Source: Planctomycetota bacterium
GTDB lineage: Bacteria > Planctomycetota > UBA1135
Direction of reading: 5' to 3'
Assembly: GCA_021776925.1 (NCBI GenBank)
Contig: JAJFFB010000100.1
Coordinates: forward strand, 35,894 to 99,893
DNA length: 64,000 nt
The notes under the pieces were generated by a model. That model was not told where the DNA came from and did no database searches. It saw only the letters and a program-made list of their open reading frames with translations. Below, piece by piece: positions 38,327 through 55,010 of the stretch (within the stretch, counting starts at the first letter, position 1; each line of letters begins with the position of its first letter). The position numbers and the translations under genes are program-made.

Positions 38327-38899
38327 ATGATTGCCACTACCAATAACGCATGGTCGGAGTCTCAAATGAACCAGACTCTGGCCGACCTGAAACAGGATTT
38401 CCCTCGCTACACGGATAACGAGTTGTACGCCATCTGGTGCCATCAACACGGTTTGATTCCGATTGATAGCGAGGGCAAATTGAACCTGGAACAATGGAAG
38501 ATCCACGCCTCCCAGGACGGCGAATTCTTCCAGGAGGGCGGTTTCCGCGTCTCCCGTGCGCTCTACGGCCGCGCCCTTAAAGCACAGAAGGGCAAGCCCA
38601 AGCCGCCGCGCCAGGTGAAGAAGAAGAAGGAGCTGGCGCCGATATTCCCCGACGCCCCCGCCCAACCGCCGGACATCACCTTTGCCCGCGATTACCACCG
38701 GGCCGCGACCACGATCTACACCATTCTGGAAAAGCGCGCAGAGGTCACTGCCCTATTGCGCAGCCTTGAAGATCTGGACAACCGCATCGTCGCCGACCTC
38801 TGCGACAACGACCCGCGCGTCGCCGCAGTCCTGCATGAGGCTCGCAATCTGGCCGTGACCTCGCGTGTGGCTCCGCTCGAGCCTCCGGCCGAGTACTGA
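38327..38899 (+). CDS. hypothetical protein (190 aa) with a basic KGKPKPPRQVKKKK patch
   Basis: ATG at 38327 within ORF 37892..38899; upstream of it the opposite strand holds the transporter gene. The 5' half is clearly lower in GC than its surroundings. No domain recognised. Confidence 0.45.
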   Translation: MIATTNNAWSESQMNQTLADLKQDFPRYTDNELYAIWCHQHGLIPIDSEGKLNLEQWKIHASQDGEFFQEGGFRVSRALYGRALKAQKGKPKPPRQVKKKKELAPIFPDAPAQPPDITFARDYHRAATTIYTILEKRAEVTALLRSLEDLDNRIVADLCDNDPRVAAVLHEARNLAVTSRVAPLEPPAEY

Positions 38900-38947: not shown

Positions 38948-39832
38948 CTAGAATTCGACGCCGAAGCGTGATTTCAGGGCGAAGCCGAGGACCAGCGATA
39001 CGACTACGAACCACAACATGATGCCGATCTCGCCTCCGGGCAGAAATGCCAAGGGGGCTGCGGCGTAGGGCACGGTGATCGTGGTGACGAAGGAGCCGGC
39101 GTCGATCACCGGATCGCCGAAGAACAGGATCGGGTCCTTGGCGGCGGCGAACTTGGCAAAGGGCGTCGCGGTGCGCAGGCGCGCCAGGCGGCGCGGATCG
39201 GTACCGACCTCGACCGTTTTGGTGACCGTTTCGCCGGCGTAGCGGAGGCCCAGCTGGTGGGAGCCGTTGGTGGTCGCGTCGACCACCAGGACCAAGCGGT
39301 CGCTGGTGTTGCCACGCTGGACCAGATCGAGTCCGGCTGGCACATCCAGGTCGATTTCGTTGGCTTTGACCTTGTCAGCGAGTTCGACCACGATGGTGAC
39401 CTTTTCCTGGCCGACTTCCAGTGGCTGATAGGCGTAAAGCGAATTGAGCTGGAACCAGATCACCATGAAAGGCGCCGCCAGCACGATCATCGGCAATACG
39501 TTAAGGCCCAGATACGCCATGTTCCAGGAAAGGGATCCGAACACTCCCTTGCCGACGGTGGGCATGTCGTCCTGAAAAATGCGGATGCCGAGCAGGTTGT
39601 GCTTGATCTTGTCCTTGACCGCGACGATGGCCCCTTGGGCGGACACGTGCGGGAAGGCCAGCAAGAACAATATGCCGGTCCCGGCGCTGACCAGGGTGAC
39701 CACGCCGAAACCGCCGAGCCAGCCAAAGGCCACGTCGAAGCCGGTGAACAGACCGTTGAGGAGCGCGGGAACGAAGACCCCCGCCGCGGCAATCACGCCG
39801 CAGATGGCAATGGTAAGCAGGGTTGCGATCAT
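38948..39832 (-). CDS. orphan membrane protein (3 N-terminal TM helices, extracytoplasmic domain, C-terminal TM helix)
   Basis: ATG at 39832 gives MIATLLTIAICGVIAAAGVFVPALL. The C-terminal helix is IGIMLWFVVVSLVLGFAL. It is the last gene of the minus-strand sat/cysC/NPP cluster. Confidence 0.6.
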   Translation of the reverse strand: MIATLLTIAICGVIAAAGVFVPALLNGLFTGFDVAFGWLGGFGVVTLVSAGTGILFLLAFPHVSAQGAIVAVKDKIKHNLLGIRIFQDDMPTVGKGVFGSLSWNMAYLGLNVLPMIVLAAPFMVIWFQLNSLYAYQPLEVGQEKVTIVVELADKVKANEIDLDVPAGLDLVQRGNTSDRLVLVVDATTNGSHQLGLRYAGETVTKTVEVGTDPRRLARLRTATPFAKFAAAKDPILFFGDPVIDAGSFVTTITVPYAAAPLAFLPGGEIGIMLWFVVVSLVLGFALKSRFGVEF

Positions 39833-39872
39833 GTTCGGTGGGTCGCAGACGTCGGCACGGAAGCACTCAGCC

Positions 39873-40070
39873 TTAGCTGATGTAGCCGAGACCGCGCAGC
39901 GATTCGGTGATGTCCTGGTCAGAGCTACCCTGTCCTTCGATCTCCTTGAGTTCCTTTTCCAGAACGTGCTCGACGAATTCCTCAACCGAGGAATAGCCAG
40001 CGACCTCGGCGACCTTCTTGCAGCGCTCGAGGATGTCTTTGTTGAGCTTGAGCTTGGGTCCTCCAAACAT
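39873..40070 (-). CDS. small ribbon-helix-helix (CopG/Arc/MetJ-like) protein, paralogue 1, C-terminal LRGLGYIS
   Basis: 65 aa. KLKLNKDILERCKKVAEVAGYSSVEEFVEHVLEKEL fits the strand-helix-helix pattern. It aligns with 47356..47577 (VTVKIPRPLYRRIQQVIENTGFSSPTDFIVFVLRDLM). GC is lower than in flanking genes. Confidence 0.65.
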   Translation of the reverse strand: MFGGPKLKLNKDILERCKKVAEVAGYSSVEEFVEHVLEKELKEIEGQGSSDQDITESLRGLGYIS

Positions 40071-40105
40071 CGTCTTTCTCCGTAATCAGGGTTGGGTGGT
40101 TCGCC

Positions 40106-42298
40106 CTAGAACAAGGGCTTGCCGTCGACGCCGGCCGGTGGCTCGACATCGAAAAGGTGGTAAAGGGTTGCAGTGATGTCTTCCAGGGCCGGATCTTTGC
40201 TCAGACCCTGCCCGTTGCGCACGATGATCGTGCCGCGCACCACTTCCGGGTCCATCAGATGGGAACCCGACCAGCGGCTTAGATTGTCCTCCATCACCGT
40301 GGTGCCGGTGATCTTGCCCGAAGCGGCGTCATCCGAGGCACCATAGCCGTAGCTGAAGCCGAGCTGCAGGTCAGGCGCGAATTCGGTCATCTCGCCTTCG
40401 AAGACCTCGGTCGCGAGCAACACGCGGCGGAACACGGCCTCGCCGTTGTCGTCGTGCAGAGCCAGCAGCTTGTTGCGGATTTCTTCGAGCAGAGGTTCGG
40501 CCTGCTGATCGCTGACGATTCCCTTCGGCTCACGTTCGACCCGATTGAGGATGACCCCGTTGAAACCGACCGTGTAGGCCTGGGTCTGCGACCAGTCCAC
40601 AACCGAACTGTCCCAGTCGATGCCGCCCTCGGCATCGATACCCATGGCGCCGACGTCCCCGCTGGTTTTGCCTTCGCGCAGGACCATGTATCCCTCCTGC
40701 ACCAGCCAGTCGTTGACATTCATGCGCCGGTAGAAGGGTGCAAAGCCATGGTCGGACATAATGATCAGCTTGACCGCTTCGCCATCGGCTTCCATGGCTT
40801 CGAGGCGATGCATCAAGTGCCCGAGCATGTCGTCGACCTGTTTGTAAATACGATCCAGCTGCTGTGAGTAGCCGGGAAGGTCGGGGTCGTCGATCGATCC
40901 TGTCTCTTCCTGGTAGGGATGGCGAAGGTCCTGCGCGTGCCACAGCATGTGCGACCGCAGGTCCAGCGACCCGGTGTAGAAGAACAACAGGCCGCCCGAC
41001 TCATCGAGCTGGTCACATGCGTAATCAAGCATGTGCCGACGCTCTTCGATCACGGTGTCGGATTGCGATACAAACTCTGCGGTGTTCAGCAACTTGGCCT
41101 TGTACGCCTTGTACGCGTCGGGAAAGCCCTGGGTGTGGTAAGGCCCGATCACCGCGGCCATTTCGGCGGAAGCATCGTCGGGAGTGCTGACCGGAGTGGC
41201 CGGGTCGTAAGGATCGATCTGGATCGGCGCGGCGTAAAGTTCGAAGGGCTGATGCGACTTGAACAGGAAACGCGTCCAGCCCTTCATGGCAACCATGCCG
41301 TGCACCATGGAAAATTCGACCGGCACCCAATCGGTCCATTCCCCTACCTTGGCGATCCCGTAATGGTCCTCGACCTCGATCGTCACAACCGGCTCAGGCC
41401 CGGTGTAATCCAGGTAGGTGGTAAACGGCAGGAAGGTCTCGCGCTCGTCGGCGATTTCGCGTTTGATCTCTGCGATGCGGTTGCCGTATTCGCGTGCACG
41501 GGCGGTTTCGCCAGCGGAATTGGCTTCACGCGCGCGGACGTTGAGGACGGCCATCTCGTGTTCTAGATCGTCAAGATCGCGCGCCGAATCCTCCGGTCCG
41601 TAGAGCTGCGCTGGAATCGGAATGATGCCCTTGCCGCCCTCGACCTCAAGGCGCAATCGGTTCACCGAAACCCGACGGATGTAATAAGAGGTGCCGTCTT
41701 TATCCTGCTTGGAAGGATCCTCCGTCCACAGAAAGGCCTTGCCCGCCTGTTCGCCGGTGATGTCACCAAAACCCATGTCGGGGAAGGTGACCGCGTTGGT
41801 GTCGACCAGGGGATAGTTGGCCGGCATGCGGTGTACGAAGACCGGAACCCCCGCCTCGTCGAGCACTTCCCAAAAAGCGGGCATGCGCCGCATCACGCGG
41901 GTGTCGCCACCGGTGACCGGAATCTTGTAGCCGGCCAGACTGATCTCGAAACCGACCGGGTCGGTCTCGCTCATCGAATTGAGCAGTCCGTAGTTGTGTC
42001 GGTCGACGTGGATGAAGTCGTACAGTCCGTGGCGACCGGGATTGGAACCGGTGGTGAAGTTGGTCCACGCCACCGGCGATTGTGGCGGCCACGAGGTCTG
42101 CAGCGGCTGGAAAACAGAGGTGTCGACCAGCTTGGCGAAATTAGGCAGTAGACCTCGATCGATGCGTTCTTGAAGCATCTCGGGGTCCAGCCCATCGACG
42201 CCGAATACGACCACGCGCTGGTCGCTCTGCTTCTCATTGCCGCCACATGCGGGCAGCAAGACGGCACACAAGGAAACCAGGAGGAGTCGGCTGCGCAT
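40106..42298 (-). CDS. alkaline-phosphatase-superfamily protein, type I phosphodiesterase/nucleotide pyrophosphatase (NPP)-like, lipoprotein
   Basis: ATG at 42298 gives MRSRLLLVSLCAVLLPACGG (lipobox). Motifs VVVFGVDGLDP, SWPPQSPVAWTNFTTG, IIMSDHGF and WSGSH. Paralogous to 42298..44532. Confidence 0.8.
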   Translation of the reverse strand: MRSRLLLVSLCAVLLPACGGNEKQSDQRVVVFGVDGLDPEMLQERIDRGLLPNFAKLVDTSVFQPLQTSWPPQSPVAWTNFTTGSNPGRHGLYDFIHVDRHNYGLLNSMSETDPVGFEISLAGYKIPVTGGDTRVMRRMPAFWEVLDEAGVPVFVHRMPANYPLVDTNAVTFPDMGFGDITGEQAGKAFLWTEDPSKQDKDGTSYYIRRVSVNRLRLEVEGGKGIIPIPAQLYGPEDSARDLDDLEHEMAVLNVRAREANSAGETARAREYGNRIAEIKREIADERETFLPFTTYLDYTGPEPVVTIEVEDHYGIAKVGEWTDWVPVEFSMVHGMVAMKGWTRFLFKSHQPFELYAAPIQIDPYDPATPVSTPDDASAEMAAVIGPYHTQGFPDAYKAYKAKLLNTAEFVSQSDTVIEERRHMLDYACDQLDESGGLLFFYTGSLDLRSHMLWHAQDLRHPYQEETGSIDDPDLPGYSQQLDRIYKQVDDMLGHLMHRLEAMEADGEAVKLIIMSDHGFAPFYRRMNVNDWLVQEGYMVLREGKTSGDVGAMGIDAEGGIDWDSSVVDWSQTQAYTVGFNGVILNRVEREPKGIVSDQQAEPLLEEIRNKLLALHDDNGEAVFRRVLLATEVFEGEMTEFAPDLQLGFSYGYGASDDAASGKITGTTVMEDNLSRWSGSHLMDPEVVRGTIIVRNGQGLSKDPALEDITATLYHLFDVEPPAGVDGKPLF

Positions 42299-44532
42299 CA
42301 GGCGACCACCTTGCTCTCGCTGGGTTCGGGATTGGCTTCGCTCTGGACCGTGGGAGCTTCCGGCCCACGCGGTCCGAACAGCGGCTGGCCTTGCATGTAG
42401 CCCGGGATCGGCAGACCAAAGAGGCGCAGCACGGTGGGTCCGAGGTCCATCAGGTTGGGCGCCTGGGTGTTGATCGGGGTATCGCTGAAAACCACCCCGG
42501 GCACCTCGCGCGGATCGATGCAGTGATCGCCCGACCACGATTTTGTGTTATCGGAGAACACCTCGGCCGGGCACGCGCCGGTGGCGCAGTTCCAGGCATT
42601 GCGGTAGCCACGCACGTATCCGGCAAACAGGTCCGGAGCCTCGAAGACGTAAGGACCGGTGAAGATCTCGTCGGCGTCGAATACGTCGCGGAACACGCGT
42701 TCGCCGGTCTTGGGGTCCTCGAGTTTCATCAGGCCGGCCTTGATCTCGGCCTTGACCTGGTGCAGTTCCTCGCCTTCTTCGACGATGCCGTTGCGCTCCC
42801 GCCCCTTGCGGTTGATAAACAGGCCGGTGAGGCCGAGCGAGAAGGCCTTGGTCTGCTCCCAGTCGACGTCTTGCAGCCAGTCGCGCGACACCGGAACGCC
42901 GCTTTCCTCGTCGACCGGAGCATCGGCCTTGAGCACCAGGAAGCCGTTGTCCCGCAGCCAAGCGTTGAGATTGACACCGCGCTTGAACTGGCAGAAACCG
43001 TGGTCGGAGATGATCAGCAGCTGATCACGCTTGGGATTCAGCTTGCCCTTGACCTCGCCGATCAGGCGATCGGCGGTGGCGTAGATCTCGGCGACCTTGT
43101 CCTTGCCCCACTCGGTGTCCTTGCCCTCGTTGGCAGGGTGGTCGGCATCAAGATAGCGGTGGAACATATGCGACACCCGGTCGGTGCCGTCGAAGACGCA
43201 CACCACCGATCCCTTGCGGGTGTTCTTCAGCGCGTCGAACAATTGCGCGCGACGTTCGTTCCAAATGTTGAGCGACTGCTTCCAAAAGGCCTCTTCGTCG
43301 ATCACCCGCTCGTTCAGAGCCCAGGTGTCCTCGGCAAGGCCGAGGGTGGCGAAAGGGCCGAGCTTCTTGGCCAGATAGATCGAGTACACCGTCGGATGCG
43401 AGATCGGCATCGCCGGGTTGGCGGGGTCGATCTGAATCGGCGTCATGTAGAGGCCGAACTCCGGCGCGGTGCCCATGCAGTAGAAGCGCGCGATGCCCGA
43501 AGCCTTGACCTTGGAGAACTTGGACACGAACTCGAGCGTGACCCAGTCGCTGTAGTCCTTGACCCCGATCTCGACCACCTGCTCGGAACCCTTGGTGCCG
43601 ATCGACAGGCGCACCCGGCCCTTGTTGCCCTCGCTGCCGTCGCCGTCCTCGAGCACCTCGATCTTCATCGGGATGCGCATCGGTTCGGGCTTGCTCGCGC
43701 CCGGATCGGCAGGCCCGGTGATCGGGCAGCGCAGGACGTTGCGGTCGCGGGCCACCATCAGCACGTCGCCGCCGGCCTCAGGGCCGGCGAGAGCCTTGTC
43801 GGTGGTCCAGAAGGTAAAGGAACCCTGGGTGCCCTTGAGGTCGGGAACACACATTCCCGACAGGCACGCGCCGTGAAATTTTTCCGGCGGGAAGGTGATC
43901 GGCACGCGGATGATATTGGAGAAGATCTTCTTCTCGCCCAGAATCGCCCACCACGGCTTGCCCTTGCGCAGCAGCCGGATGCTCGAAGTCGACTTCTTCA
44001 AGAATTCGAACTTGCCGATCTTGAGCAGTGCCTTTTCACCCTGGCGGATCTCGGTCGAGGACAGGATCGGCAGATAGGTGCAAGGATCGCGGGTGATGAA
44101 ATCAAAAATGTTGTGGCGGCTGGCGTCGACTCCGGTGGTGAAGGAGGACCACGCCACCGGCGACATCGACGGATAGGAGGTCGCCAAAGGGCCAAAACTG
44201 CCGTGCTCGGACATCGCCTTCATGTTGGGCATGCGCCCCTCGTCCATGAAACGCTGCGCGAGCTGCGGGTCCATGCCATCGAAACCGATGATGACCACGC
44301 GCTTGGTCTTGCCCTTGATGCGTCCGGCTCCGGTGAGCAGACGCATGGCCATCTTGATCGGATAGGCGAAAACGATGGCGACCGCCAGGAACAGCGCACC
44401 GACCAGGACCAGTCCGCCGGACAAAACGGCAAAACCGGCGCCAGGTCCGATGTAGGCCTGGGCCGGATCCGGCGCTGCGAGCATGAAAGCGCAGGCCAGG
44501 AAGATGGCGAGAAGAGTGCGGTTGCGCGGCAT
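42298..44532 (-). CDS. alkaline-phosphatase-superfamily protein, NPP-like, membrane-anchored
   Basis: The N-terminus is MPRNRTLLAIFLACAFMLAAPDPAQAYIGPGAGF followed by a TM helix. Motifs VVIIGFDGMDP, SYPSMSPVAWSSFTTG, LIISDHGF and WSGDH. The stop overlaps the next ATG by 1 nt. Confidence 0.8.
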   Translation of the reverse strand: MPRNRTLLAIFLACAFMLAAPDPAQAYIGPGAGFAVLSGGLVLVGALFLAVAIVFAYPIKMAMRLLTGAGRIKGKTKRVVIIGFDGMDPQLAQRFMDEGRMPNMKAMSEHGSFGPLATSYPSMSPVAWSSFTTGVDASRHNIFDFITRDPCTYLPILSSTEIRQGEKALLKIGKFEFLKKSTSSIRLLRKGKPWWAILGEKKIFSNIIRVPITFPPEKFHGACLSGMCVPDLKGTQGSFTFWTTDKALAGPEAGGDVLMVARDRNVLRCPITGPADPGASKPEPMRIPMKIEVLEDGDGSEGNKGRVRLSIGTKGSEQVVEIGVKDYSDWVTLEFVSKFSKVKASGIARFYCMGTAPEFGLYMTPIQIDPANPAMPISHPTVYSIYLAKKLGPFATLGLAEDTWALNERVIDEEAFWKQSLNIWNERRAQLFDALKNTRKGSVVCVFDGTDRVSHMFHRYLDADHPANEGKDTEWGKDKVAEIYATADRLIGEVKGKLNPKRDQLLIISDHGFCQFKRGVNLNAWLRDNGFLVLKADAPVDEESGVPVSRDWLQDVDWEQTKAFSLGLTGLFINRKGRERNGIVEEGEELHQVKAEIKAGLMKLEDPKTGERVFRDVFDADEIFTGPYVFEAPDLFAGYVRGYRNAWNCATGACPAEVFSDNTKSWSGDHCIDPREVPGVVFSDTPINTQAPNLMDLGPTVLRLFGLPIPGYMQGQPLFGPRGPEAPTVQSEANPEPSESKVVA

Positions 44533-44558
44533 GGGTTGTGGTGCAGGGCGCGCCGGAA

Positions 44559-44586
44559 GGGCCAGAGAGGTTACCCCCTCTGGCCC
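44559..44586. other. intercistronic stem-loop between cysC and the NPP-like gene
   Basis: 9-bp stem GGGCCAGAG / CTCTGGCCC with a 10-nt loop, read directly. No U-tract follows on the transcribed (minus) strand. Confidence 0.3.
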
Positions 44587-44592
44587 AGCATT

Positions 44593-45147
44593 CTAGGCGT
44601 TGGCCGGTGCGGCGGCCGGGATCAGACCGTTGGTCTCGAGGTAACCGAGGATTTCCTTGAGGCTCTCCTCGGGATCCTGGCTCTCGGAGTTGACGGTGAT
44701 CTCGGCGTGCTCGGGAACTTCGTATGGATCGGAAATCCCGGTGAAGTTCTTGATCTCGCCAGACAGGGCCTTGGCGTAAAGACCCTTGACGTCGCGCCGT
44801 GTCAGCTCTTCGATCGAGCACTCGGCGTAGACTTCGACGAAGCTGCCCATCATGCCGCGGCACTGGCGGCGCACTTCGGCGTAGGGCGAGATCGCCGCGG
44901 TCATGACGATGGCGCCATTACGGGAGAGCAGCTTGGCAACGTAGCCGATGCGGCGGATGTTGGTGTCCCGGTCTTCTTTGGAGAAGCCGAGTCCTTTGGA
45001 CAGGTTCTCACGAACTTCGTCGCCGTCGAGAATCTCGACCTTGCAGCCGCGCTTGCGCAACTCCGGCTCAAGCATGCGGGACAGGGTGGATTTGCCCGAT
45101 CCGGACAGTCCGGTGAACCAGAGGCAGAAACCTTTTTGATTGGTCAT
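44593..45147 (-). CDS. cysC: adenylylsulfate (APS) kinase
   Basis: GFCLWFTGLSGSGKSTLS (P-loop), LDGDEVR and full-length similarity to CysC. Confidence 0.95.
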   Translation of the reverse strand: MTNQKGFCLWFTGLSGSGKSTLSRMLEPELRKRGCKVEILDGDEVRENLSKGLGFSKEDRDTNIRRIGYVAKLLSRNGAIVMTAAISPYAEVRRQCRGMMGSFVEVYAECSIEELTRRDVKGLYAKALSGEIKNFTGISDPYEVPEHAEITVNSESQDPEESLKEILGYLETNGLIPAAAPANA

Positions 45148-45186
45148 GGGTCTAGGTGAGTGTGCGGAAGAGTCGCAGGGGATGGG

Positions 45187-46101
45187 TTACTTGAGCTTGC
45201 CCTCTAGGAAGGGAACCTCGAAACACTTGTCGTGCATGATCGGGCCGTGCCCGAAGTAGCCCGCTTCGCCGAACAATTCGCCGTGGTCTGCGGTCACGAT
45301 GACCCAGGAGTCCTTTGGCAGCATGTCGTAGAAGCGAGGGAAGACCTCTTGGTCGAGGTAGCGCACCGTTTCGATCTGACGCGCGCGGCATTTTTGGATC
45401 ATCTCCATGTCCATGAACTCGCCCGACTCGTTGTCGGAGATCAGGTTGCCGGTCTCGTCAATCTGGTTGTCGAGCTTGCGGAAGATGCCGTTGACGCCGG
45501 AGATGTGCGGCAGGTCGTTCTTGTCCTCGTCAGGGAGCCCGTAGGGGTAGTGGGTCTCGCCCACGTTCATCAGGTAGAACTGCGGCTTGTTGCCGCCGAT
45601 GCCCTTGGACTCGCGCTTGGTGTGCGCTTCGATCTCGTCCAACATCAGGTTCATGTCGTTGTGCTTCGGCATGAGCTTGAAGGTGTCGAAATCGCGATTG
45701 ATCCCGGTGGCCGGGTTGAGCACCGGCAAGGACACCAGCGCGTGGGTCTCGTAGCTCTTGTTCTTGAGATACTTGGGCAGCCACAGGTGCGGGATCATCG
45801 CCTCGAAGCCGGCCTCGTCCACGCCCAGCCTTTCGGTGAACTTGTACAGGTCGTGCTTGTAATACTCCGAGGCGTAGACCTTTTCCGGACTGGTGTGCGG
45901 AACCAGTCCGGTGAGCAGGTTGTAGTGAGAAGGAGCGGTCCACGACGCGTAGCTGTAGCGGGCTTCGACGTTCTCGAGGCCGCCGACCAGCTTGGCGATG
46001 TTCTCGGGCTGTGCCTCCATGAAGGTGTCATAGCGGCATGAATCCAGGGTGATGACGAACAGATGGTTCAGTTCGCGCTTCTTTCCGAACAGTCCGAACA
46101 T
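45187..46101 (-). CDS. small cytoplasmic alkaline-phosphatase-superfamily protein (NPP/sulfatase-like core)
   Basis: No signal peptide (MFGLFGKKRELNHL). VITLDSCRYD is a metal-binding Asp region. SWTAPSHYNLLTGLVPH resembles the NPP nucleophile motif T-F-P-N-H-Y-x-x-x-TG-L-x-P. VIVTADHGELFGE is also present. AAGGAG SD about 6 nt upstream of the ATG. Confidence 0.7.
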   Translation of the reverse strand: MFGLFGKKRELNHLFVITLDSCRYDTFMEAQPENIAKLVGGLENVEARYSYASWTAPSHYNLLTGLVPHTSPEKVYASEYYKHDLYKFTERLGVDEAGFEAMIPHLWLPKYLKNKSYETHALVSLPVLNPATGINRDFDTFKLMPKHNDMNLMLDEIEAHTKRESKGIGGNKPQFYLMNVGETHYPYGLPDEDKNDLPHISGVNGIFRKLDNQIDETGNLISDNESGEFMDMEMIQKCRARQIETVRYLDQEVFPRFYDMLPKDSWVIVTADHGELFGEAGYFGHGPIMHDKCFEVPFLEGKLK

Positions 46102-46130
46102 GGATCAGCTCCTTCGCTCTTGGGGACAGA

Positions 46131-47306
46131 TCAGGCGCTGGCGGTCGCCGAGCCTGCGTAGGAAGCGATCAGGATGTCAGCGACCTCGGGGCGGGTGAAC
46201 TCGGCCGGCGGACGTTCGCCGTTGCTGAGCATCTCGCGCACCTTGGTGCCGCTGAGGAAGATCTTGTCCTCGGGGCCGGCCGGGCTCGACTTGGTCGAAG
46301 CCATGCCGCCGGTGAGCTTGCAGTAGAAGGCGTGCTCGAACAACAGGGTGTTGATCTGGAGTTCGCCGTCTTCGAATTGGTCGAAGATCTGTTGCGCGTC
46401 GAAAGTGCCGTAGTAGGCGCCCACACCGGCGTGGTCGCGGCCGATGATGATGTGGGTGCAGCCGTAGTTCTGACGGCAGATCGCGTGCAGAATCGCCTCG
46501 CGCGGGCCGCCGTAGCGCATCGCCTGCGGGTAGACGCCGAGCATGGTGCGGTCGAGCGGGTAGTACTTGTTGAGCAGCGCGTGGTAGCACGCCATGCGCA
46601 CGTCGGACGGGATGTCGTCCGACTTGGTGTCGCCCACCAAGGGGTGCACCAGCAGGCCGTCGGTCTGCTCGAGCGCGACCTTGGTCAGGTACTCGTGGGC
46701 GCGGTGGATCGGGTTGCGCGTCTGGAAGGCAACCACCGTTTCCCAGCCCTTCTCGGCGAAGGCGGCACGGCTCTGCTCCGGTGTGAAGCGGTAGTCGTTG
46801 TGCTTGGCGTGGCTCGGCAGGTCGGCGACCTCGAAGCTGCCGCCCACGTTCCAGGAACCCAGAGTGGACAGATAACCCCACGCCGGATGGTCGTGGTCGG
46901 CCTTGGCGCCGGTCCCGCTGAAGCACCGATCCAGTTCGATCTCGCGATCGGGCTGCCACACGTCGCCCACGGTCAGGATGCCGTAGACGCTTCCGTCTTC
47001 ACCCTGTAGGGCGACTTCGGCGCCTGCTTCCGGAGCGGCTTCGCCGTCCTTCAGAGCCAGGGTCACCGGCAGCGGCCACGGGGTGCCGTTGGCCAGGCGC
47101 AGGTTGGCGACCACGTTGTCGTAGTCGGCCTGCCCCATGAAGCCCTCGAGGGGGCTCATCGCGCCGACCGCGATCATTTCCAGATCGCTGCTTTCACGCG
47201 AGTTGAGGACCAGGACGGGAAGTTGGGCAGCGCGGGCCAGGAGCGCTTCGCGCTCGGCTCCAGTCACCATCCGGTTCACGAGTTTGCCACCGTGGGGAGC
47301 GATCAT
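46131..47306 (-). CDS. sat: sulfate adenylyltransferase (ATP sulfurylase, Sat type)
   Basis: ATG at 47306 gives MIAPHGGKLVNRMV. Motifs FQTRNPIHRAHEYL and IIGRDHAGVG. Confidence 0.9.
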   Translation of the reverse strand: MIAPHGGKLVNRMVTGAEREALLARAAQLPVLVLNSRESSDLEMIAVGAMSPLEGFMGQADYDNVVANLRLANGTPWPLPVTLALKDGEAAPEAGAEVALQGEDGSVYGILTVGDVWQPDREIELDRCFSGTGAKADHDHPAWGYLSTLGSWNVGGSFEVADLPSHAKHNDYRFTPEQSRAAFAEKGWETVVAFQTRNPIHRAHEYLTKVALEQTDGLLVHPLVGDTKSDDIPSDVRMACYHALLNKYYPLDRTMLGVYPQAMRYGGPREAILHAICRQNYGCTHIIIGRDHAGVGAYYGTFDAQQIFDQFEDGELQINTLLFEHAFYCKLTGGMASTKSSPAGPEDKIFLSGTKVREMLSNGERPPAEFTRPEVADILIASYAGSATASA

Positions 47307-47355
47307 CGTTCCAGTTATGAAGGTTGAATCCGAAGACAGGTTGGGTTGCGAACTC

Positions 47356-47577
47356 CTAGAGGTAGCCCAAATTTTTGAGCTTTTGCTTGATGACCTGGAG
47401 TTCATCTGGGCTGAAATCGTCGGAATCGGCCTTGGTTTCCACCTCGCCCATCAGGTCGCGCAAAACGAACACGATGAAGTCAGTGGGTGAGGAAAAACCG
47501 GTGTTCTCGATCACCTGCTGAATCCTCCGGTACAGAGGGCGGGGGATCTTGACGGTAACCCGGGTTTCCTTTTGCAT
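47356..47577 (-). CDS. small ribbon-helix-helix protein, paralogue 2, C-terminal LKNLGYL
   Basis: ATG at 47577 gives MQKETRVTVKIPRPLYRRIQQVIENTGFSSPTDFIVFVLRDLM...VIKQKLKNLGYL. It is the first gene of the minus-strand cluster, 49 nt upstream of sat. Lower GC than neighbours. Confidence 0.65.
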   Translation of the reverse strand: MQKETRVTVKIPRPLYRRIQQVIENTGFSSPTDFIVFVLRDLMGEVETKADSDDFSPDELQVIKQKLKNLGYL

Positions 47578-47616: not shown

Positions 47617-47669
47617 TGGAGTGCCAAGGGAGCCTACCTGGAGTGCAATTTGAGTCTCACCGCACTCCA
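47617..47669. promoter_or_regulatory. three copies of TGGAGTGC (two direct, one inverted) with 22-23-nt left-edge offsets; candidate RHH operator
   Basis: Read directly: TGGAGTGC at 47617-47624 and 47639-47646, and GCACTCCA at 47662-47669. This is 40-92 nt upstream of the RHH start at 47577, in the divergent intergenic region. Confidence 0.4.
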
Positions 47670-47836: not shown

Positions 47837-48445
47837 ATGCGATTTCACCTGTTTCCGCCCTTTCTGACCCTGCTCTTCCTGACCCTGCCCCTGCCCGGCT
47901 GTGGCAGCGACGACCCCGAGGCGGTCCGCTATGCCGATGCCCTGGACGCCCTGGACCTGGGCCATGCAGCCTACGCCCAGGGTGATCTGCAGGCAGCTCG
48001 CCTGGCCTTTCAGTACGCAGCCGACCACGGCCGTCTGCCGGCCGTGCGCGCCACCGGGACCGAGTTCCTGATGCGCTCCTGTGCAGTATCGCGGGACACC
48101 CTTGGCGCGCTCACAGCCTTGGAGCGGCTAAAAGCGGATTTCCCCGAGACCCTGGACGCCGCCAAGCTCAATGACATGGCTCAATTCATGTGGGAAGTGG
48201 TCCAAAGCCCGGGGTTGAGCGAGGCCGTCATCGATTACGCCGAGGACCTTGGCGTGGTCGGCTTCTCGGTCCTCAAACACCGGCGGAAAGTCGCTGGATT
48301 GCGCCAGGCGGACGACCCGAAACTGGGTTTCTTGGGCTATCTGGACCCAGACGCTTTGAAAGAAGCCCCTATTCCCTCTCCTCTCTCACCCGAAACCACC
48401 TCCGAGCCAGGAAAGTCCGCGGACGAGGATCCACTCCCCTGGTAG
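47837..48445 (+). CDS. small helical lipoprotein, paralogue 1
   Basis: ATG at 47837 gives MRFHLFPPFLTLLFLTLPLPGCGSDDPE (lipobox). Collinear with 48482..49000. Contains KLGFLGYLD. Confidence 0.65.
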   Translation: MRFHLFPPFLTLLFLTLPLPGCGSDDPEAVRYADALDALDLGHAAYAQGDLQAARLAFQYAADHGRLPAVRATGTEFLMRSCAVSRDTLGALTALERLKADFPETLDAAKLNDMAQFMWEVVQSPGLSEAVIDYAEDLGVVGFSVLKHRRKVAGLRQADDPKLGFLGYLDPDALKEAPIPSPLSPETTSEPGKSADEDPLPW

Positions 48446-48481
48446 AATTCGGCGCTTCGGCGCGTTCCACAAGCACTCATC

Positions 48482-49000
48482 ATGCGCATCCACCTGTTCC
48501 TGCTCCTCTTCGCCCTGCCGGTCCTGTCCCTGCCCGCCTGCGGCAACGGAGAGTCCGACGACCCCGCACCGGTCACCTTCGCCGACGACATGGAAGCCCT
48601 CGAGAAGGGCGACGCCGCGGTCGCGCGCAAAGACTTTGGGGTGGCCCGCCAGGCCTATAGCTTCGCCGCCCTCGAGGGCAGCAGCGACGCGGTCAAGGCC
48701 AGCGCCACCGAGAAATTGGTGCGCGCCTGTGCCCAGGGCAACGACACCATCGCCGCCCTCGGCTCATTGGAAACGCTGAAGAGCGATCACCCCGCCACTC
48801 TTGACACCGCCAAGCTCACCGAGCTCGCCGAGTTCATGGTCACCGTGGCCAAGAATCCCGATCTGTGCGAGTTTCTGATCGACACCGCCAAGGAGCTGGG
48901 CGCCACCGATTTCCGCGAGGAGCACTTCCGCAATACGGTCACCGCCATGCGCAGCGGCGACACAGAGGCCATGGCGGCCCTCGGCTACGTCGGCGATTGA
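48482..49000 (+). CDS. small helical lipoprotein, paralogue 2
   Basis: MRIHLFLLLFALPVLSLPACGNGESDDP (lipobox). Shares ...LE.LK.D.P.TLD.AKL...A.FM... with the preceding gene. Ends ...AMAALGYVGD. Confidence 0.65.
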   Translation: MRIHLFLLLFALPVLSLPACGNGESDDPAPVTFADDMEALEKGDAAVARKDFGVARQAYSFAALEGSSDAVKASATEKLVRACAQGNDTIAALGSLETLKSDHPATLDTAKLTELAEFMVTVAKNPDLCEFLIDTAKELGATDFREEHFRNTVTAMRSGDTEAMAALGYVGD

Positions 49001-52010: not shown

Positions 52011-52841
52011 TCAGGTTTCGACCGCAACGGCGCTTTCCTCTTCCGGAGGCAGGATCGCCATCACGTCCAGTTCCAGGCACTCGCAGGGGCTGCCGAGGAG
52101 TTGCGCGATCGAAGGACGGGTGCGCCCCTCATCGCCGGAGATGACTTCCTTGATATAGGTGCCGTGCTGGCTGCGGATGGTCACGCGCCAGCCGGGCGCT
52201 TCGGGAGTCGCCTGCAAAACCTCGATCCAGCGTTCGCGGTCGAGACGCGCGCGGCGATGCTCCACCCGGCTCGGGGTCGACTGCACCACGTCGATTCGCC
52301 CGGCCTGCACCCACCCTTGCAGCAGTTCGGCGGCACGCTCCTGGCCGGGACCATCCTCGGCGCCAAAACCGATCAGCGCGCGATACTCCTTGGGGCAGCG
52401 CGTTTCCTTGATCTCGACCACGCGGCGGCGGTTGGAATAGTGCAGGTCGAGAATCTCCAGCCGCCCCGGGTTGCGCCGGTTGACCTCGGCGGCGAACTCG
52501 TCGAGATCGACCACCGGCCGTTTGGCCTTGATCAGTTCCAGCACGAAGGGGCGGCCGTCGCCGAGCATGCGCACGTTCATGTCCTCGCGCCCGGCGCCGT
52601 GGAACTTGTTGCGCCGCGCCTTGAAACGCGGTAACGCCACCCAGGCGATCAGTTCCTGCACCGAATCACGGGTCAGCTTGCCGAAGCCCTCGCAGTGCTC
52701 ACAGCCGCGCCCCTTGCACTGCGGACAGTAAAAATAGGTTTGCGGCAGGTCGCGGCTCAGCTTGCGGTAGCGGCCTTCGATGTACACCTTGACCGCCGGC
52801 TGGGACGGCGGGATCTGGGCGGGTCGGGGGGAGTCGGGCAA
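52011..52841 (-). CDS. Pus10-like tRNA pseudouridine synthase catalytic domain (no THUMP domain)
   Basis: YIEGRYRKLSRDLPQTYFYCPQCKGRGCEHCEGFG (zinc ribbon), HGAGREDMNVRMLGDGRPFVLEL (catalytic Asp motif) and GTYIKEVISGDEGRTRPSI all match my recollection of conserved Pus10 blocks. TTG start at 52841, uncertain. Confidence 0.6.
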   Translation of the reverse strand: MPDSPRPAQIPPSQPAVKVYIEGRYRKLSRDLPQTYFYCPQCKGRGCEHCEGFGKLTRDSVQELIAWVALPRFKARRNKFHGAGREDMNVRMLGDGRPFVLELIKAKRPVVDLDEFAAEVNRRNPGRLEILDLHYSNRRRVVEIKETRCPKEYRALIGFGAEDGPGQERAAELLQGWVQAGRIDVVQSTPSRVEHRRARLDRERWIEVLQATPEAPGWRVTIRSQHGTYIKEVISGDEGRTRPSIAQLLGSPCECLELDVMAILPPEEESAVAVET

Positions 52842-54797: not shown

Positions 54798-54859
54798 GTT
54801 GCGCGATCCTGCTGGCCGAAGATAGAGTGCCCCCGTCCGGTGCCGCCGGGCCACCCCAG

Positions 54860-54931
54860 ATGCGCTCCTCCTTCCACTTCTACGCCTACGCGGGCCGCTT
54901 TTACGGCTACCGCGGGCGGGTGGTTGGCTAG
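54860..54931 (+). CDS. candidate aromatic-rich leader peptide (23 aa: [23 protein letters not shown])
   Basis: ATG at 54860, TAG at 54929-54931. It has 3 Phe and 4 Tyr codons. It lies 22 nt upstream of a terminator hairpin and 80 nt upstream of the CM-PDT-DAHPS gene. Confidence 0.55.
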
Positions 54932-54953
54932 GCAGCGCGATTTGCCGAATCCA

Positions 54954-54980
54954 CCACCCGCCGACTGCGGGTGGTTTTTT
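54954..54980 (+). terminator. intrinsic terminator / attenuator hairpin upstream of the pheA-aroF fusion
   Basis: 8-bp GC-rich stem CCACCCGC (54954-54961) / GCGGGTGG (54967-54974), 5-nt loop, then TTTTTT at 54975-54980. An exact second copy of GCGGGTGG at 54916-54923 could pair with the 5' arm instead. Confidence 0.65.
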
Positions 54981-55010
54981 CATTCCATCCGCTCCGCACC
55001 CAGCAGAGGA

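What the first reader, a model, noticed from the sequence alone, without database searches (positions are those of the whole stretch)
38948..47577. PAPS-synthesis genes embedded among three alkaline-phosphatase-superfamily (NPP-like) paralogues, two RHH regulators and an orphan membrane protein
Eight co-directional, tightly spaced minus-strand genes run in this order: RHH, sat, small cytoplasmic NPP/sulfatase-like protein (304 aa, TAPSHYNLLTGLVPH nucleophile-type motif), cysC, TM-anchored NPP-like protein (744 aa), NPP-like lipoprotein (730 aa, 1-nt stop/start overlap), RHH, orphan 4-TM protein. Sat plus CysC make APS/PAPS, yet the cluster has no PAPS reductase, sulfite reductase or canonical PAPS sulfotransferase motif. 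Two readings are plausible. In the first, the exported AP-superfamily hydrolases release sulfate from organic sulfate or phosphosulfate esters for assimilation. In the second, this is a sulfation or nucleotide-phosphosulfate-handling pathway in which AP-superfamily enzymes act on APS/PAPS or transfer sulfate (vertebrate NPPs are known to cleave phosphosulfate bonds). I do not recognise this combination as a described system.
Basis: partly seen in the sequence, partly recalled or inferred. Interest (0 to 1): 0.75.

Follow-up and report, generated by a model that had tools for sequence, protein, structure and literature searches.

The report
Conserved sulfate-activation-linked membrane enzyme module
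A marine Planctomycetota genome joins genes that make activated sulfate (PAPS) to an undescribed four-gene membrane module found across many bacterial phyla, and the comparisons suggest it uses activated sulfate at the cell envelope and is not for sulfur nutrition.

Summary
The eight minus-strand genes are real and sit at the stated coordinates. Two divergent lipoprotein genes (47837-49000) also belong to the locus.

Comparison with 80 loci from other genomes splits it into two parts:
- A core conserved across phyla: a hairpin-anchored NPP-type enzyme whose catalytic domain probably faces the cytoplasm (744 aa), an exported NPP-type paralogue (730 aa), a 65-aa RHH-like protein ending ...GLGYIS, and a membrane protein.
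- A variable accessory set for activated sulfate.

The "orphan" membrane protein is a bacterial relative of archaeal DUF106/Ylp1 (Oxa1/YidC/EMC3 superfamily) with an Ig-like periplasmic insert.

In 26 of 37 well-flanked loci the core lies within 10 kb of a PAPS-pathway gene, or of the 304-aa enzyme that sits between sat and cysC. Planctomycetota have sat-AP304-cysC, with or without a CysQ-like gene. Myxococcota and Acidobacteriota have an adjacent PF13469 sulfotransferase. One locus has a Sat::NPP fusion.

A C-terminal ...L-x-x-L-G-Y-[ILV] tail marks several unrelated proteins of these loci.

No cysH, cysIJ or formylglycine motif was found. The sulfation or phosphosulfate-handling reading is supported. 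The sulfate-scavenging reading is not. The acceptor and the chemistry remain unknown. I found no description of the system in the literature.

The parts
48482..49000 (+). Helical lipoprotein (172 aa, lipobox LPAC) ending ...AMAALGYVGD. It belongs to the lipoprotein family encoded divergently upstream of the core in other phyla.
   Evidence: It matches the profile of the upstream lipoprotein family over its full length, LGY tail included (E 2e-7). It is 45% identical to its neighbour at 47837-48445.
47837..48445 (+). Paralogous helical lipoprotein (202 aa, lipobox LPGC). The motif ...KLGFLGYLD is followed by a roughly 40-aa extension.
   Evidence: E 1.6e-6 to the same profile. No Pfam family.
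47618..47668 (.). Three copies of the 7-mer GCACTCC/GGAGTGC, spaced exactly 22 bp apart, just upstream of RHH1. This is a candidate operator for an RHH-type regulator.
   Evidence: Only 5 other copies occur in the 64-kb window. Function is inferred, not tested.
47356..47577 (-). RHH1: a 73-aa RHH-like protein ending ...KLKNLGYL.
   Evidence: The tail is present in all 15 of 15 tblastn matches to RHH1. The RHH fold is weakly supported.
46131..47306 (-). sat: homo-oligomeric-type ATP sulfurylase (PUA_2 + ATP-sulfurylase domains).
   Evidence: TIGR00339 scores 415 bits against a cutoff of 323. NF003166 scores 491 against 387.
45187..46101 (-). AP304: a small sulfatase-fold metalloenzyme with no signal peptide and a threonine nucleophile (W-T55-A-P-S-H). 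D20, D272/H273 and H285 are invariant.
   Evidence: It always lies next to cysC in Planctomycetota loci.
44593..45147 (-). cysC: APS kinase.
   Evidence: PF01583, E 1e-60; NF002059 above its cutoff.
44559..44586 (-). G+C-rich hairpin (GGGCCAGAGGGG...CCTCTCTGGCCC) in the 60-nt gap between cysC and AP744. It has no T-run. It may mark an RNA processing or stability site at the boundary between the two modules.
   Evidence: Read directly from the sequence. Coordinates are approximate. It is not among the terminator-like sites.
42298..44532 (-). AP744: an NPP-type binuclear metalloenzyme. The N-terminus has a signal-like helix, an invariant AYIGPGAG turn, a second helix and a K/R-rich segment. This hairpin anchor predicts a cytoplasmic catalytic domain. 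A beta-rich insertion spans residues ~205-365.
   Evidence: D85, S124, D451, H455, D510, H511 and H670 are invariant. The best structural matches are Xanthomonas NPP, ENPP1/3/6/7 and phosphonoacetate hydrolase.
40106..42298 (-). AP730: the exported (lipoprotein) paralogue of AP744, with the same catalytic residues.
   Evidence: Counterparts in other phyla carry lipoprotein, Sec or twin-arginine signals.
39873..40070 (-). RHH2: a 65-aa RHH-like protein. The N-terminus is MFG in every RHH2 row of the alignment. An acidic linker leads to the tail ...L-[KR]-G-L-G-Y-I-S at the C-terminus.
   Evidence: The tail is present in 67 of 68 loci.
38948..39832 (-). TM294: a bacterial DUF106/Ylp1-like (Oxa1 superfamily) membrane protein. 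It has a cytoplasmic helical hairpin after the first core TM helix and an Ig-like periplasmic domain inserted before the last TM helix.

Best explanation
**What it is.** The locus combines two functionally linked modules.

**Module A (RHH1-sat-AP304-cysC).** This module makes PAPS.
- AP304 is a cytoplasmic AP-superfamily enzyme wedged between ATP sulfurylase and APS kinase.
- It most likely works directly on a product of sulfate activation.
- My preferred guess is hydrolysis of pyrophosphate to pull the unfavourable ATP sulfurylase reaction. Action on APS, PAPS or PAP is the alternative.

**Module B (AP744-AP730-RHH2-TM294, plus the two divergent lipoproteins).** This is a widespread, undescribed envelope module.
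- An NPP-type enzyme is held at the cytoplasmic face of the inner membrane by a helical hairpin.
- A paralogous NPP-type enzyme works in the periplasm.
- A DUF106/Oxa1-like membrane protein either inserts the hairpin anchor or moves an intermediate across the membrane.

**How the modules relate.** In other phyla the same core is partnered by a dedicated cytoplasmic PAPS sulfotransferase and a CysQ-like PAP phosphatase. The system as a whole therefore consumes activated sulfate for a membrane- or envelope-associated product, not for cysteine synthesis.

**The LGY tail.** The tail ...L-x-x-L-G-Y-[ILV]-COOH is carried by the RHH proteins, the lipoproteins, extra sulfatase-fold enzymes, some CysC proteins and DUF2061 proteins. 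I read it as a docking or recognition motif that ties these proteins to the core. On the RHH proteins it would couple transcription to the state of the system.

**Shown:** gene content, conservation, linkage, domain families, catalytic residues and the tail motif.

**Inferred:** topology, the role of AP304, the role of TM294, the role of the tail, and the use of PAPS for sulfation.

**Unknown:** the acceptor molecule.
For: **Core conservation.**
- AP-AP-RHH2-TM294 is conserved in order and strand in about 65 of 80 loci. These are labelled Planctomycetota, Myxococcota, Acidobacteriota, Dadabacteria, Binatota, Gemmatimonadota, Eiseniibacteriota and others.

**Linkage to PAPS genes.**
- 26 of 37 well-flanked loci have a PAPS-pathway gene or AP304 within 10 kb.
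- The linkage appears in at least four arrangements.
- The sulfotransferase has an intact GLPRSGTS 5'-PSB loop. It lies directly next to the core in 22 loci, in two orientations.
- A CysQ-like gene is present in 9 loci.

**AP-superfamily genes tied to sulfate activation.**
- sat-AP304-cysC occurs in Planctomycetota.
- sat-NPP(459 aa)-cysC occurs in L046.
- An 878-aa Sat::PF01663 fusion occurs in L059.
- As a precedent for coupling ATP sulfurylase to pyrophosphate removal, stramenopiles and haptophytes have ATP sulfurylase-pyrophosphatase fusions (PMC2275785).

**Catalytic competence.**
- The metal ligands and the nucleophile are invariant in AP744 and AP730 and in AP304.
- The AP744 model is NPP-like.

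**Topology.**
- The AxA-YIGPGAG-helix-K/R pattern is present in nearly all full-length AP744 orthologues.
- The second paralogue carries export signals.

**TM294.**
- Its family profile hits MJ0480 (PDB 5C8J) at E 1.6e-7. The match is collinear over TM1, the coiled coil and TM2, with a weak match to TM3.
- Pfam EMC3_TMCO1 gives weak hits.
- JGI names one homologue "DUF106 family".
- The AlphaFold model has a mean pLDDT of 88.9.
- Known Oxa1-family substrates have few TM helices and small translocated regions (PMC5868721). This fits the AP744 hairpin.

**LGY tail.**
- It is present in 67 of 68 RHH2 and 15 of 15 RHH1 proteins, and in lipoproteins, sulfatase-fold proteins, some CysC and DUF2061 proteins.
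- In the window an LGY lies in the last 60 residues of five proteins, all in this locus. These are RHH1, both lipoproteins and CysC, and RHH2.

**No reductive pathway.** No reductive sulfur genes were found among the ORFs scanned between 24 and 62 kb.
Against:
- Eleven of 37 well-flanked loci, including the Terriglobia, carry the core with no PAPS gene nearby. The core may therefore have a function that does not need sulfate.
- The window has no canonical sulfotransferase. One may lie elsewhere in the genome, or PAPS may feed assimilation through a cysH outside the window.
- NPP-type sites normally transfer phosphoryl groups, not sulfuryl groups.
- The cytoplasmic location of the AP744 domain rests on the positive-inside rule alone.
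- Foldseek matched only the Ig domain of TM294 and did not confirm the Oxa1 fold.
- Nearly all related loci come from metagenome-assembled genomes, and some taxon labels are unreliable.
- The fact that AP304 and the sulfotransferase never co-occur is confounded by phylogeny.
Confidence: 0.5

Rival explanations
1. The two modules are independent neighbours. RHH1-sat-AP304-cysC is part of ordinary assimilatory sulfate activation, with cysH and cysIJ elsewhere in the genome and AP304 acting as a helper such as a pyrophosphatase. The AP744-AP730-RHH2-TM294 module is an unrelated envelope phosphodiesterase system, for example for phospholipid head-group turnover or phosphate scavenging.
For: - A hairpin and a 60-nt gap separate cysC from AP744.
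- The core stands alone in Terriglobia and some other loci.
- The nearest structural relatives include the lipid phosphodiesterases ENPP6 and ENPP7 and alkaline phosphatases.
- The AP744 and AP730 active sites are typical phosphoryl-transfer sites.
Against: - Linkage to PAPS genes recurs in several non-homologous arrangements across phyla (26 of 37 loci).
- A dedicated sulfotransferase abuts the core in 22 loci.
- The same LGY tail is shared by proteins of both modules: RHH1, some CysC and DUF2061 on one side, RHH2 and the lipoproteins on the other.
- PF01663 paralogues of the core enzymes are sandwiched between sat and cysC, or fused to Sat.
Confidence: 0.17
2. The exported AP-superfamily enzymes act as sulfatases or phosphosulfatases that release sulfate from organic esters outside the cell. 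Sat and CysC then activate that sulfate for assimilation.
For: - AP730 and the extra sulfatase-fold proteins in related loci are exported.
- AP304 passes the Pfam Sulfatase threshold, marginally.
- The organism is a marine planctomycete. From general knowledge, this group is rich in sulfatases.
Against: - None of the AP proteins has a C/S-x-P-x-R formylglycine motif. The nucleophiles are Ser124 and Thr55.
- No formylglycine-generating enzyme, cysH or cysIJ was found among the ORFs scanned between 24 and 62 kb.
- AP304 has no signal peptide, and the AP744 domain is predicted to be cytoplasmic.
- From general knowledge, sulfate is about 28 mM in sea water, so scavenging it would give little benefit.
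- The partners in other phyla are a sulfotransferase and a PAP phosphatase-like gene, which consume PAPS.
Confidence: 0.06
3. This is a protein tyrosine-sulfation system. The invariant tyrosine of the LGY tails is O-sulfated by the neighbouring sulfotransferase, or in Planctomycetota by AP304 or a sulfotransferase encoded elsewhere. The NPP-type enzymes read, remove or pass on that modification on both sides of the membrane.
For: - The tails carry an invariant Tyr preceded by an acidic stretch.
- The best solved relatives of the sulfotransferase family are human tyrosylprotein sulfotransferases 2 and 1 (E 1e-5). The match covers only the PAPS-binding loop.
- Its best Pfam family is PF13469.
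- From general knowledge, bacterial tyrosine sulfation has a precedent in RaxST and RaxX.
Against: - The match to the tyrosylprotein sulfotransferases covers only the cofactor loop.
- Residues next to the Tyr are Gly, Leu and basic residues, not acidic ones.
- Tails occur both on cytoplasmic and on exported proteins.
- Tails occur in loci with no sulfotransferase, including this window.
- A similar ...GY[FM] ending is a normal feature of CysD. A binding role for the tail is therefore at least as likely.
Confidence: 0.1

Closest known systems
Dedicated PAPS-synthesis plus sulfotransferase clusters for sulfated envelope or signal molecules (NodPQ-NodH in rhizobia, RaxPQ-RaxST in Xanthomonas, the mycobacterial CysDNC-Stf systems). 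These comparisons rest on general knowledge.
   Same: A sulfate-activation pair lies next to non-reductive tailoring genes, without cysH or cysIJ. In related phyla the same core lies next to a PAPS-type sulfotransferase and a CysQ-like phosphatase.
   Different: - The window has no P-loop sulfotransferase.
- The conserved partners are two NPP-type enzymes on opposite faces of the membrane, a DUF106-like protein and tail-bearing RHH proteins. None of these occurs in the known clusters.
- The acceptor is unknown.
ATP sulfurylase-inorganic pyrophosphatase fusions of stramenopiles and haptophytes (PMC2275785)
   Same: An ATP sulfurylase is physically coupled to a phosphoanhydride or phosphoester hydrolase. 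The comparable cases here are the Sat::PF01663 fusion in L059 and the sat-AP-cysC sandwiches.
   Different: The partner here belongs to the alkaline-phosphatase superfamily, either sulfatase-type (AP304) or NPP-type, and not to the family I or II pyrophosphatases. Pyrophosphatase activity is only inferred.
Nucleotide pyrophosphatase/phosphodiesterases (Xanthomonas NPP, ENPP1/3/6/7) and phosphonoacetate hydrolase
   Same: The fold is shared (Foldseek E 2e-10, target TM-score about 0.6). The full set of binuclear metal ligands and the nucleophile position are also shared.
   Different: - The nucleophile is Ser, not Thr.
- There is a beta-rich insertion of about 160 residues.
- The N-terminal hairpin anchor with its AYIGPGAG turn has no counterpart.
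- The location is predicted to be cytoplasmic, whereas classical NPPs are extracytoplasmic.
- There is no sequence hit to any PDB chain with the single sequence.
Archaeal DUF106/Ylp1 (MJ0480) and the Oxa1/YidC/EMC3/Get1/TMCO1 superfamily of membrane protein insertases
   Same: The profile match is collinear across TM1, the cytosolic coiled coil and TM2, with a weak match to TM3. The three-TM core topology is shared (PMC5868721).
   Different: - TM294 is bacterial, whereas DUF106 is described as an archaeal and eukaryotic family.
- It carries an Ig-like domain of about 110 residues in the TM2-TM3 loop.
- It is encoded in an operon with enzymes, not as a housekeeping gene.
- Pfam PF01956 is not reached at its curated threshold.
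Periplasmic sulfatase-fold head-group transferases with a threonine nucleophile (LtaS, EptA/MCR-1, OpgB). This comparison rests on general knowledge.
   Same: AP304 and the extra sulfatase-fold membrane proteins of related loci have Thr in place of formylglycine, and the same metal ligands.
   Different: AP304 is small (304 aa), soluble and cytoplasmic, and has no membrane domain. It has no significant sequence match to any solved structure.

Membership tests
NPP / type I phosphodiesterase (Pfam PF01663), tested on AP744 and AP730 | Pfam score above the gathering threshold | tested here: met
   90.2 and 98.1 bits against a cutoff of 23
NPP / type I phosphodiesterase (Pfam PF01663), tested on AP744 and AP730 | Binuclear metal ligands (D, D-x3-H, D-H, H) and a hydroxyl nucleophile | tested here: met
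   D85, S124, D451, H455, D510, H511 and H670 are invariant in 41 sequences, AP730 included. The nucleophile is Ser, not the usual Thr.
NPP / type I phosphodiesterase (Pfam PF01663), tested on AP744 and AP730 | NPP-like three-dimensional core | tested here: met
   AlphaFold model, mean pLDDT 84.4. The best Foldseek hits are Xanthomonas NPP and the ENPPs (E 2e-10 to 1e-7).
NPP / type I phosphodiesterase (Pfam PF01663), tested on AP744 and AP730 | Phosphodiesterase or pyrophosphatase activity | not testable with these tools
   Needs enzyme assays
Formylglycine (S1) sulfatases, tested on AP304, AP744 and AP730 | C/S-x-P-x-R formylglycine motif at the nucleophile position | tested here: not met
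   AP304 has W-T-A-P-S-H. AP744 has P-S-M-S-P-V.
Formylglycine (S1) sulfatases, tested on AP304, AP744 and AP730 | A maturation enzyme (FGE or anSME) encoded nearby | tested here: not met
   None among the ORFs scanned between 24 and 62 kb of the window. The rest of the genome was not seen.
STM4013/SEN3800 hydrolase family (NCBIfam NF038075), tested on AP304 | Score above the curated cutoff | tested here: not met
   56.6 bits against a cutoff of 250. AP304 is only a distant relative.
Assimilatory sulfate reduction cluster | PAPS or APS reductase and sulfite reductase linked to sat and cysC | tested here: not met
   No such Pfam domains among the ORFs scanned at 24-38 kb and 47.8-62 kb. Presence elsewhere in the genome cannot be excluded.
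PAPS-dependent sulfotransferase cluster | A P-loop sulfotransferase (PF00685, PF13469 or PF03567) in the locus | tested here: not met
   Absent from the window (tblastn). Present next to the orthologous core in 22 other loci.
DUF106 / Oxa1 superfamily, tested on TM294 | Sequence relationship to a bona fide member | tested here: met
   Family profile against MJ0480 (PDB 5C8J): E 1.6e-7, positions 11-122 aligned to 11-126, plus a weak match to TM3
DUF106 / Oxa1 superfamily, tested on TM294 | [quoted passage not shown] | tested here: met
   The model has helices 2-63, 66-85, 90-133 and 267-286, and the alignment agrees. The window's clade has one extra N-terminal helix.
DUF106 / Oxa1 superfamily, tested on TM294 | Pfam PF01956 at the curated threshold, and fold confirmation | tested here: inconclusive
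   PF01956 gives only weak hits, in 3 of 15 members, best E 0.002. Foldseek matched only the Ig domain.
Ribbon-helix-helix (CopG/Arc/MetJ) regulators, tested on RHH1 and RHH2 | Match to RHH profiles or structures | tested here: inconclusive
   RHH_1 hits 6 of 18 members, best E 4.8e-4. Arc and NikR match at E 0.1 to 0.35. The strand-helix-helix pattern is visible in the alignment.

The most novel reading that the evidence does not exclude
The module is a pathway for sulfation outside the cytoplasm, built from alkaline-phosphatase-superfamily enzymes. Activated sulfate from APS or PAPS would be loaded at the cytoplasmic face. The carrier could be the tyrosine of an LGY tail or a lipid. Loading would be done by the sulfotransferase, AP304 or AP744. 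A bacterial DUF106/Oxa1-type protein would pass the carrier across the membrane, and the periplasmic paralogue would deliver the sulfate. This would make AP-superfamily enzymes sulfuryl carriers or transferases, and would give a first function to a bacterial DUF106 protein.
Probability: 0.12. Interest if true: 0.95.

Novelty: categorically new. Interest (0 to 1): 0.8.

Why it matters
**If the linkage reflects function.** Many environmental bacteria, including Planctomycetota, Acidobacteriota, Myxococcota and Gemmatimonadota, would share an unrecognised use of activated sulfate at the cell envelope. The enzymes involved belong to a superfamily known for hydrolysis, not for biosynthetic sulfation.

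**Two further findings stand independently of that.**
- A large bacterial family is related to archaeal and eukaryotic DUF106/EMC3-type insertases (3148 representative clusters). Each member examined is encoded next to a candidate client with a hairpin anchor. This offers a simple genetic system for studying this class of membrane protein.
- A short C-terminal LGY tail marks regulators, enzymes and lipoproteins of one system. This looks like a new docking or modification motif.

**A testable idea about sulfate activation.** The Sat::NPP fusion and the sat-AP-cysC sandwiches suggest how these bacteria drive the unfavourable ATP sulfurylase step.

Tried and rejected
- **Apparent AP730-RHH2 fusion ORFs.** These are artefacts. 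Long ORFs in another frame of G+C-rich DNA run into the RHH2 gene (checked).
- **Single-sequence PDB searches.** AP744 and AP304 found nothing. Only family profiles gave hits.
- **Foldseek on the TM294 model.** It returned only Ig-domain matches and did not test the membrane core.
- **Rfam scan of 38.0-49.5 kb.** No RNA family.
- **Consensus promoter and terminator scan.** No sigma-70-like promoter. Terminator-like sites were not above the shuffled expectation.
- **Look-up of the window's own contig.** It returned only a 5.8-kb copy, so the flanks were annotated with Pfam directly.
- **Literature searches.** I searched for AP-superfamily sulfotransferases, COG3379, STM4013, DUF2061, bacterial DUF106 and planctomycete sulfation. 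No description of this system turned up.
- **AP304 as a replacement for CysQ.** Rejected, because both occur together in L014, L023, L041 and L045.
- **AP304 as a replacement for the sulfotransferase.** Considered, because the two never co-occur (15 loci against 22). The pattern follows phylogeny, so I give it little weight.

Full report
**1. The observation**

The region holds eight co-directional minus-strand genes:
- RHH1, 47356-47577
- sat, 46131-47306
- AP304, 45187-46101
- cysC, 44593-45147
- AP744, 42298-44532
- AP730, 40106-42298 (its start overlaps the AP744 stop by 1 nt)
- RHH2, 39873-40070
- TM294, 38948-39832

Family assignments:
- Sat and CysC pass curated thresholds.
- AP744 and AP730 are PF01663 proteins and are paralogues (29% identity).
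- AP304 only just passes the Pfam Sulfatase threshold. It is a distant relative of the NCBIfam STM4013 model (56.6 bits against a cutoff of 250).
- RHH1, RHH2 and TM294 have no family hit as single sequences.

The best protein hits are annotated as planctomycete genomes, some from marine surveys such as Tara. G+C content is 60-63% in the locus and about 66% around it.

**2. The flanks**

Pfam scans of the main ORFs at 24-38 kb and 47.8-62 kb found only unrelated housekeeping genes:
- CysS, an LPS-core glycosyltransferase, an S49 peptidase, Lon and a dicarboxylate symporter on one side
- MatE, Lgt, RNase HII and EF-G on the other

There is no PAPS reductase, sulfite reductase, sulfotransferase, CysQ or formylglycine-generating enzyme. 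A tblastn of the window with sulfotransferase and CysQ-like proteins from related loci also found nothing.

**3. The conserved unit**

A degenerate-pattern scan of one genome per species matched 587 relatives of AP744, and the best 80 loci were fetched. I mapped the eight window proteins onto these loci.
- The conserved unit is the four-gene core AP744, AP730-like, RHH2, TM294. Order and strand are the same in about 65 loci.
- These loci are labelled Planctomycetota, Myxococcota, Acidobacteriota (Terriglobia, Vicinamibacteria), Dadabacteria, Binatota, Gemmatimonadota, Eiseniibacteriota and others.
- The full eight-gene arrangement is confined to planctomycete relatives. It holds down to 54% AP744 identity in L001.

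**4. What else sits next to the core**

I clustered all ORFs of the loci and ran Pfam on cluster representatives. This showed:
- A sulfotransferase of about 205 aa (PF13469/PF00685) with an invariant GLPRSGTS PAPS loop. It occurs in 22 loci. It lies either directly downstream of TM294 or divergently upstream of AP744.
- A CysQ-like inositol-monophosphatase-family gene in 9 loci.
- sat and cysC in further arrangements: upstream, downstream, or on the opposite strand.
- Membrane-anchored, exported sulfatase-fold proteins with a Thr nucleophile, in 15 loci.
- A small helical lipoprotein encoded divergently upstream, in 10 loci.

Of the 37 loci with at least 7.5 kb upstream and 4 kb downstream, 26 carry at least one of sat, cysC, the CysQ-like gene, the sulfotransferase or AP304. 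Each of these genes is normally present in one or a few copies per genome of several megabases. This linkage is therefore far above chance, and it has arisen in several different gene orders.

Eleven loci, including three Terriglobia chromosomes, have the core alone.

**5. AP-superfamily genes are tied directly to sulfate activation**
- In Planctomycetota, AP304 (sulfatase-type) lies between sat and cysC.
- In L046 a 459-aa PF01663 protein with no signal peptide occupies the same position. It is followed by cysC, a DUF2061 protein, another 436-aa PF01663 protein and the AP744 orthologue.
- In L059 a single 878-aa ORF joins PUA_2, ATP-sulfurylase and PF01663 domains in one frame.

So two different AP subfamilies have been recruited to the same place, once as a fusion. 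The ATP sulfurylase reaction is strongly unfavourable and is pulled by pyrophosphate removal. Stramenopiles and haptophytes fuse ATP sulfurylase to inorganic pyrophosphatase for this reason (PMC2275785).

I therefore rank pyrophosphate hydrolysis as the most likely job of AP304 and the short NPP proteins. Action on APS, PAPS or PAP is the alternative. AP304 is not a CysQ substitute, because both occur together in four loci.

**6. The enzymes**

AP744 and AP730:
- The full NPP metal-ligand set and the nucleophile are invariant across 41 sequences: D85, S124, D451, H455, D510, H511 and H670.
- The AP744 model (mean pLDDT 84.4) is closest to Xanthomonas NPP, ENPP1/3/6/7, phosphonoacetate hydrolase and the SPAP and PafA phosphatases.
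- A beta-rich insertion of about 160 residues has no match.

AP304:
- It has D20, T55 (in W-T-A-P-S-H), D272/H273 and H285 invariant.
- It has no significant relative among solved structures.

None of the three has a formylglycine motif.

**7. Topology**
- Nearly all full-length AP744 orthologues start with a short signal-like helix ending A-x-A. An almost invariant YIGPGAGFA turn follows, then a second helix and a K/R-rich stretch.
- By the positive-inside rule the catalytic domain is cytoplasmic, whether or not the first helix is cleaved.
- The second paralogue carries a lipoprotein, Sec or twin-arginine signal and is periplasmic.

The core thus places the same kind of active site on both faces of the inner membrane. 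This is inferred, not shown.

**8. TM294**
- Family profiles hit PDB 5C8J, Methanocaldococcus MJ0480, at E 1.6e-7 to 2.5e-7. MJ0480 is the archaeal DUF106/Ylp1 YidC-like protein.
- The match is collinear over TM1, the cytosolic helical hairpin and TM2, with a weak match to TM3.
- Three of 15 members give weak EMC3_TMCO1 hits. JGI names one homologue "DUF106 family".
- The model (mean pLDDT 88.9) shows the helices plus an Ig-like beta domain (residues 145-253) inserted before the last helix. Foldseek picked up only this Ig domain.
- The family has 3148 representative clusters.
- DUF106 is described as an archaeal and eukaryotic family. Its relatives insert proteins with few TM helices and small translocated regions (PMC5868721).

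The AP744 hairpin is such a client. A dedicated insertase role is therefore the simplest reading. A role in moving a charged intermediate across the membrane is the more adventurous one.

**9. The LGY tail**
- RHH2 ends ...L-[KRQ]-G-L-G-Y-I-[SE] in 67 of 68 loci. RHH1 ends ...KLKNLGYL in 15 of 15 tblastn matches. Both tails follow an acidic linker.
- The same ending occurs on several other proteins: the upstream lipoproteins, the exported sulfatase-fold proteins, an extra PF01663 protein, some CysC proteins and DUF2061 proteins.
- In the window an LGY lies in the last 60 residues of five proteins, all in this locus. These are RHH1, both lipoproteins and CysC, and RHH2.
- The two lipoproteins at 47837-49000 are paralogues. 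They match the profile of the upstream lipoprotein family, so the locus extends to 49000.

The motif is too well conserved across unrelated folds to be a generic amphipathic helix. I read it as a docking or modification site recognised by a core component. It occurs on both cytoplasmic and periplasmic proteins, which matches the two-sided arrangement of the paralogous enzymes. No test of binding was possible.

Canonical CysD also ends ...KKRQGY(F) (PDB 1ZUN), and a CysD in L067 ends ...LRSLGYM. This hints that the tail is an old feature of sulfate-activation proteins.

**10. Regulation**
- The RHH fold is weakly supported.
- Three copies of GCACTCC/GGAGTGC lie exactly 22 bp apart just upstream of RHH1. 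They are a plausible operator.
- A G+C-rich hairpin without a T-run lies in the 60-nt gap between cysC and AP744. The two modules may therefore be expressed at different levels.
- No riboswitch or other Rfam family was found.

**11. Verdict**

The sulfate-scavenging reading is not supported. The reading that AP-superfamily enzymes work with activated sulfate is supported by conserved linkage, by convergent gene order and by a gene fusion.

The most likely model is a PAPS-consuming, membrane-associated system. Its core is two NPP-type enzymes on opposite membrane faces, a DUF106-like membrane protein and tail-bearing regulators. The acceptor and the actual chemistry are unknown.

I put about 0.5 on this general model. 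Independent neighbours get about 0.17, tyrosine sulfation of the tails about 0.1, and scavenging about 0.06. I found no published description of the system.

Noticed in passing
L059 16119-18755: A single 878-aa ORF fuses PUA_2 and ATP-sulfurylase domains to a PF01663 (NPP-type) domain. It is followed by a cysC with an LGY tail and another 448-aa PF01663 gene.
   Followed up: yes
L046 6185-6478; L059 9611-9910: Small DUF2061 membrane proteins next to cysC or the core also end ...LKSLGYL or ...LKELGYL.
   Followed up: partly
L067 12240-13052 (minus strand): A CysD-type ATP sulfurylase subunit ends ...QKLRSLGYM. Canonical Pseudomonas CysD (PDB 1ZUN) ends ...KKRQGY(F). The LGY tail may derive from, or mimic, the CysD C-terminus.
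   Followed up: partly
window 42298-44532 (AP744 residues C151, C228, C649, C671): Four cysteines are nearly invariant in AP744 orthologues and absent from the AP730 paralogue. They could form a structural metal site or disulfides. The second option would argue against a cytoplasmic location.
   Followed up: no
window 39873-40070 and 45187-46101: RHH2 starts with MFG in every RHH2 row of the alignment, and the AP304 family starts MFG(L/I)FGKK or MGLFD..KKK. These are conserved N-termini of unknown meaning.
   Followed up: no
window 38330-38899 (+): A 189-aa ORF convergent with the end of the locus has no Pfam family. I did not determine whether it is a real gene.
   Followed up: no
window 52011-52841 (-): A 276-aa protein matches the Pus10 C-terminal domain strongly (E 1.9e-59). 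From general knowledge, Pus10 is best known as an archaeal and eukaryotic tRNA pseudouridine synthase, so a bacterial copy is unusual.
   Followed up: no
window 54840-57086 (+): A 748-aa protein combines chorismate mutase, prephenate dehydratase and DAHP synthase domains in one chain.
   Followed up: no
L083 and L084 (Terriglobia chromosomes): Here the gene order is AP(690-701 aa), RHH2, TM294, then a short 458-aa PF01663 protein. No PAPS genes lie within 10 kb. Ergothioneine-type genes (EgtB-like and EgtD-like) lie about 2-6 kb downstream.
   Followed up: partly
L075 22-9295; L073 6-7482: Up to four tandem exported sulfatase-fold proteins (600-860 aa, Thr nucleophile) lie next to the core. 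Each ends ...LRALGYIR.
   Followed up: partly
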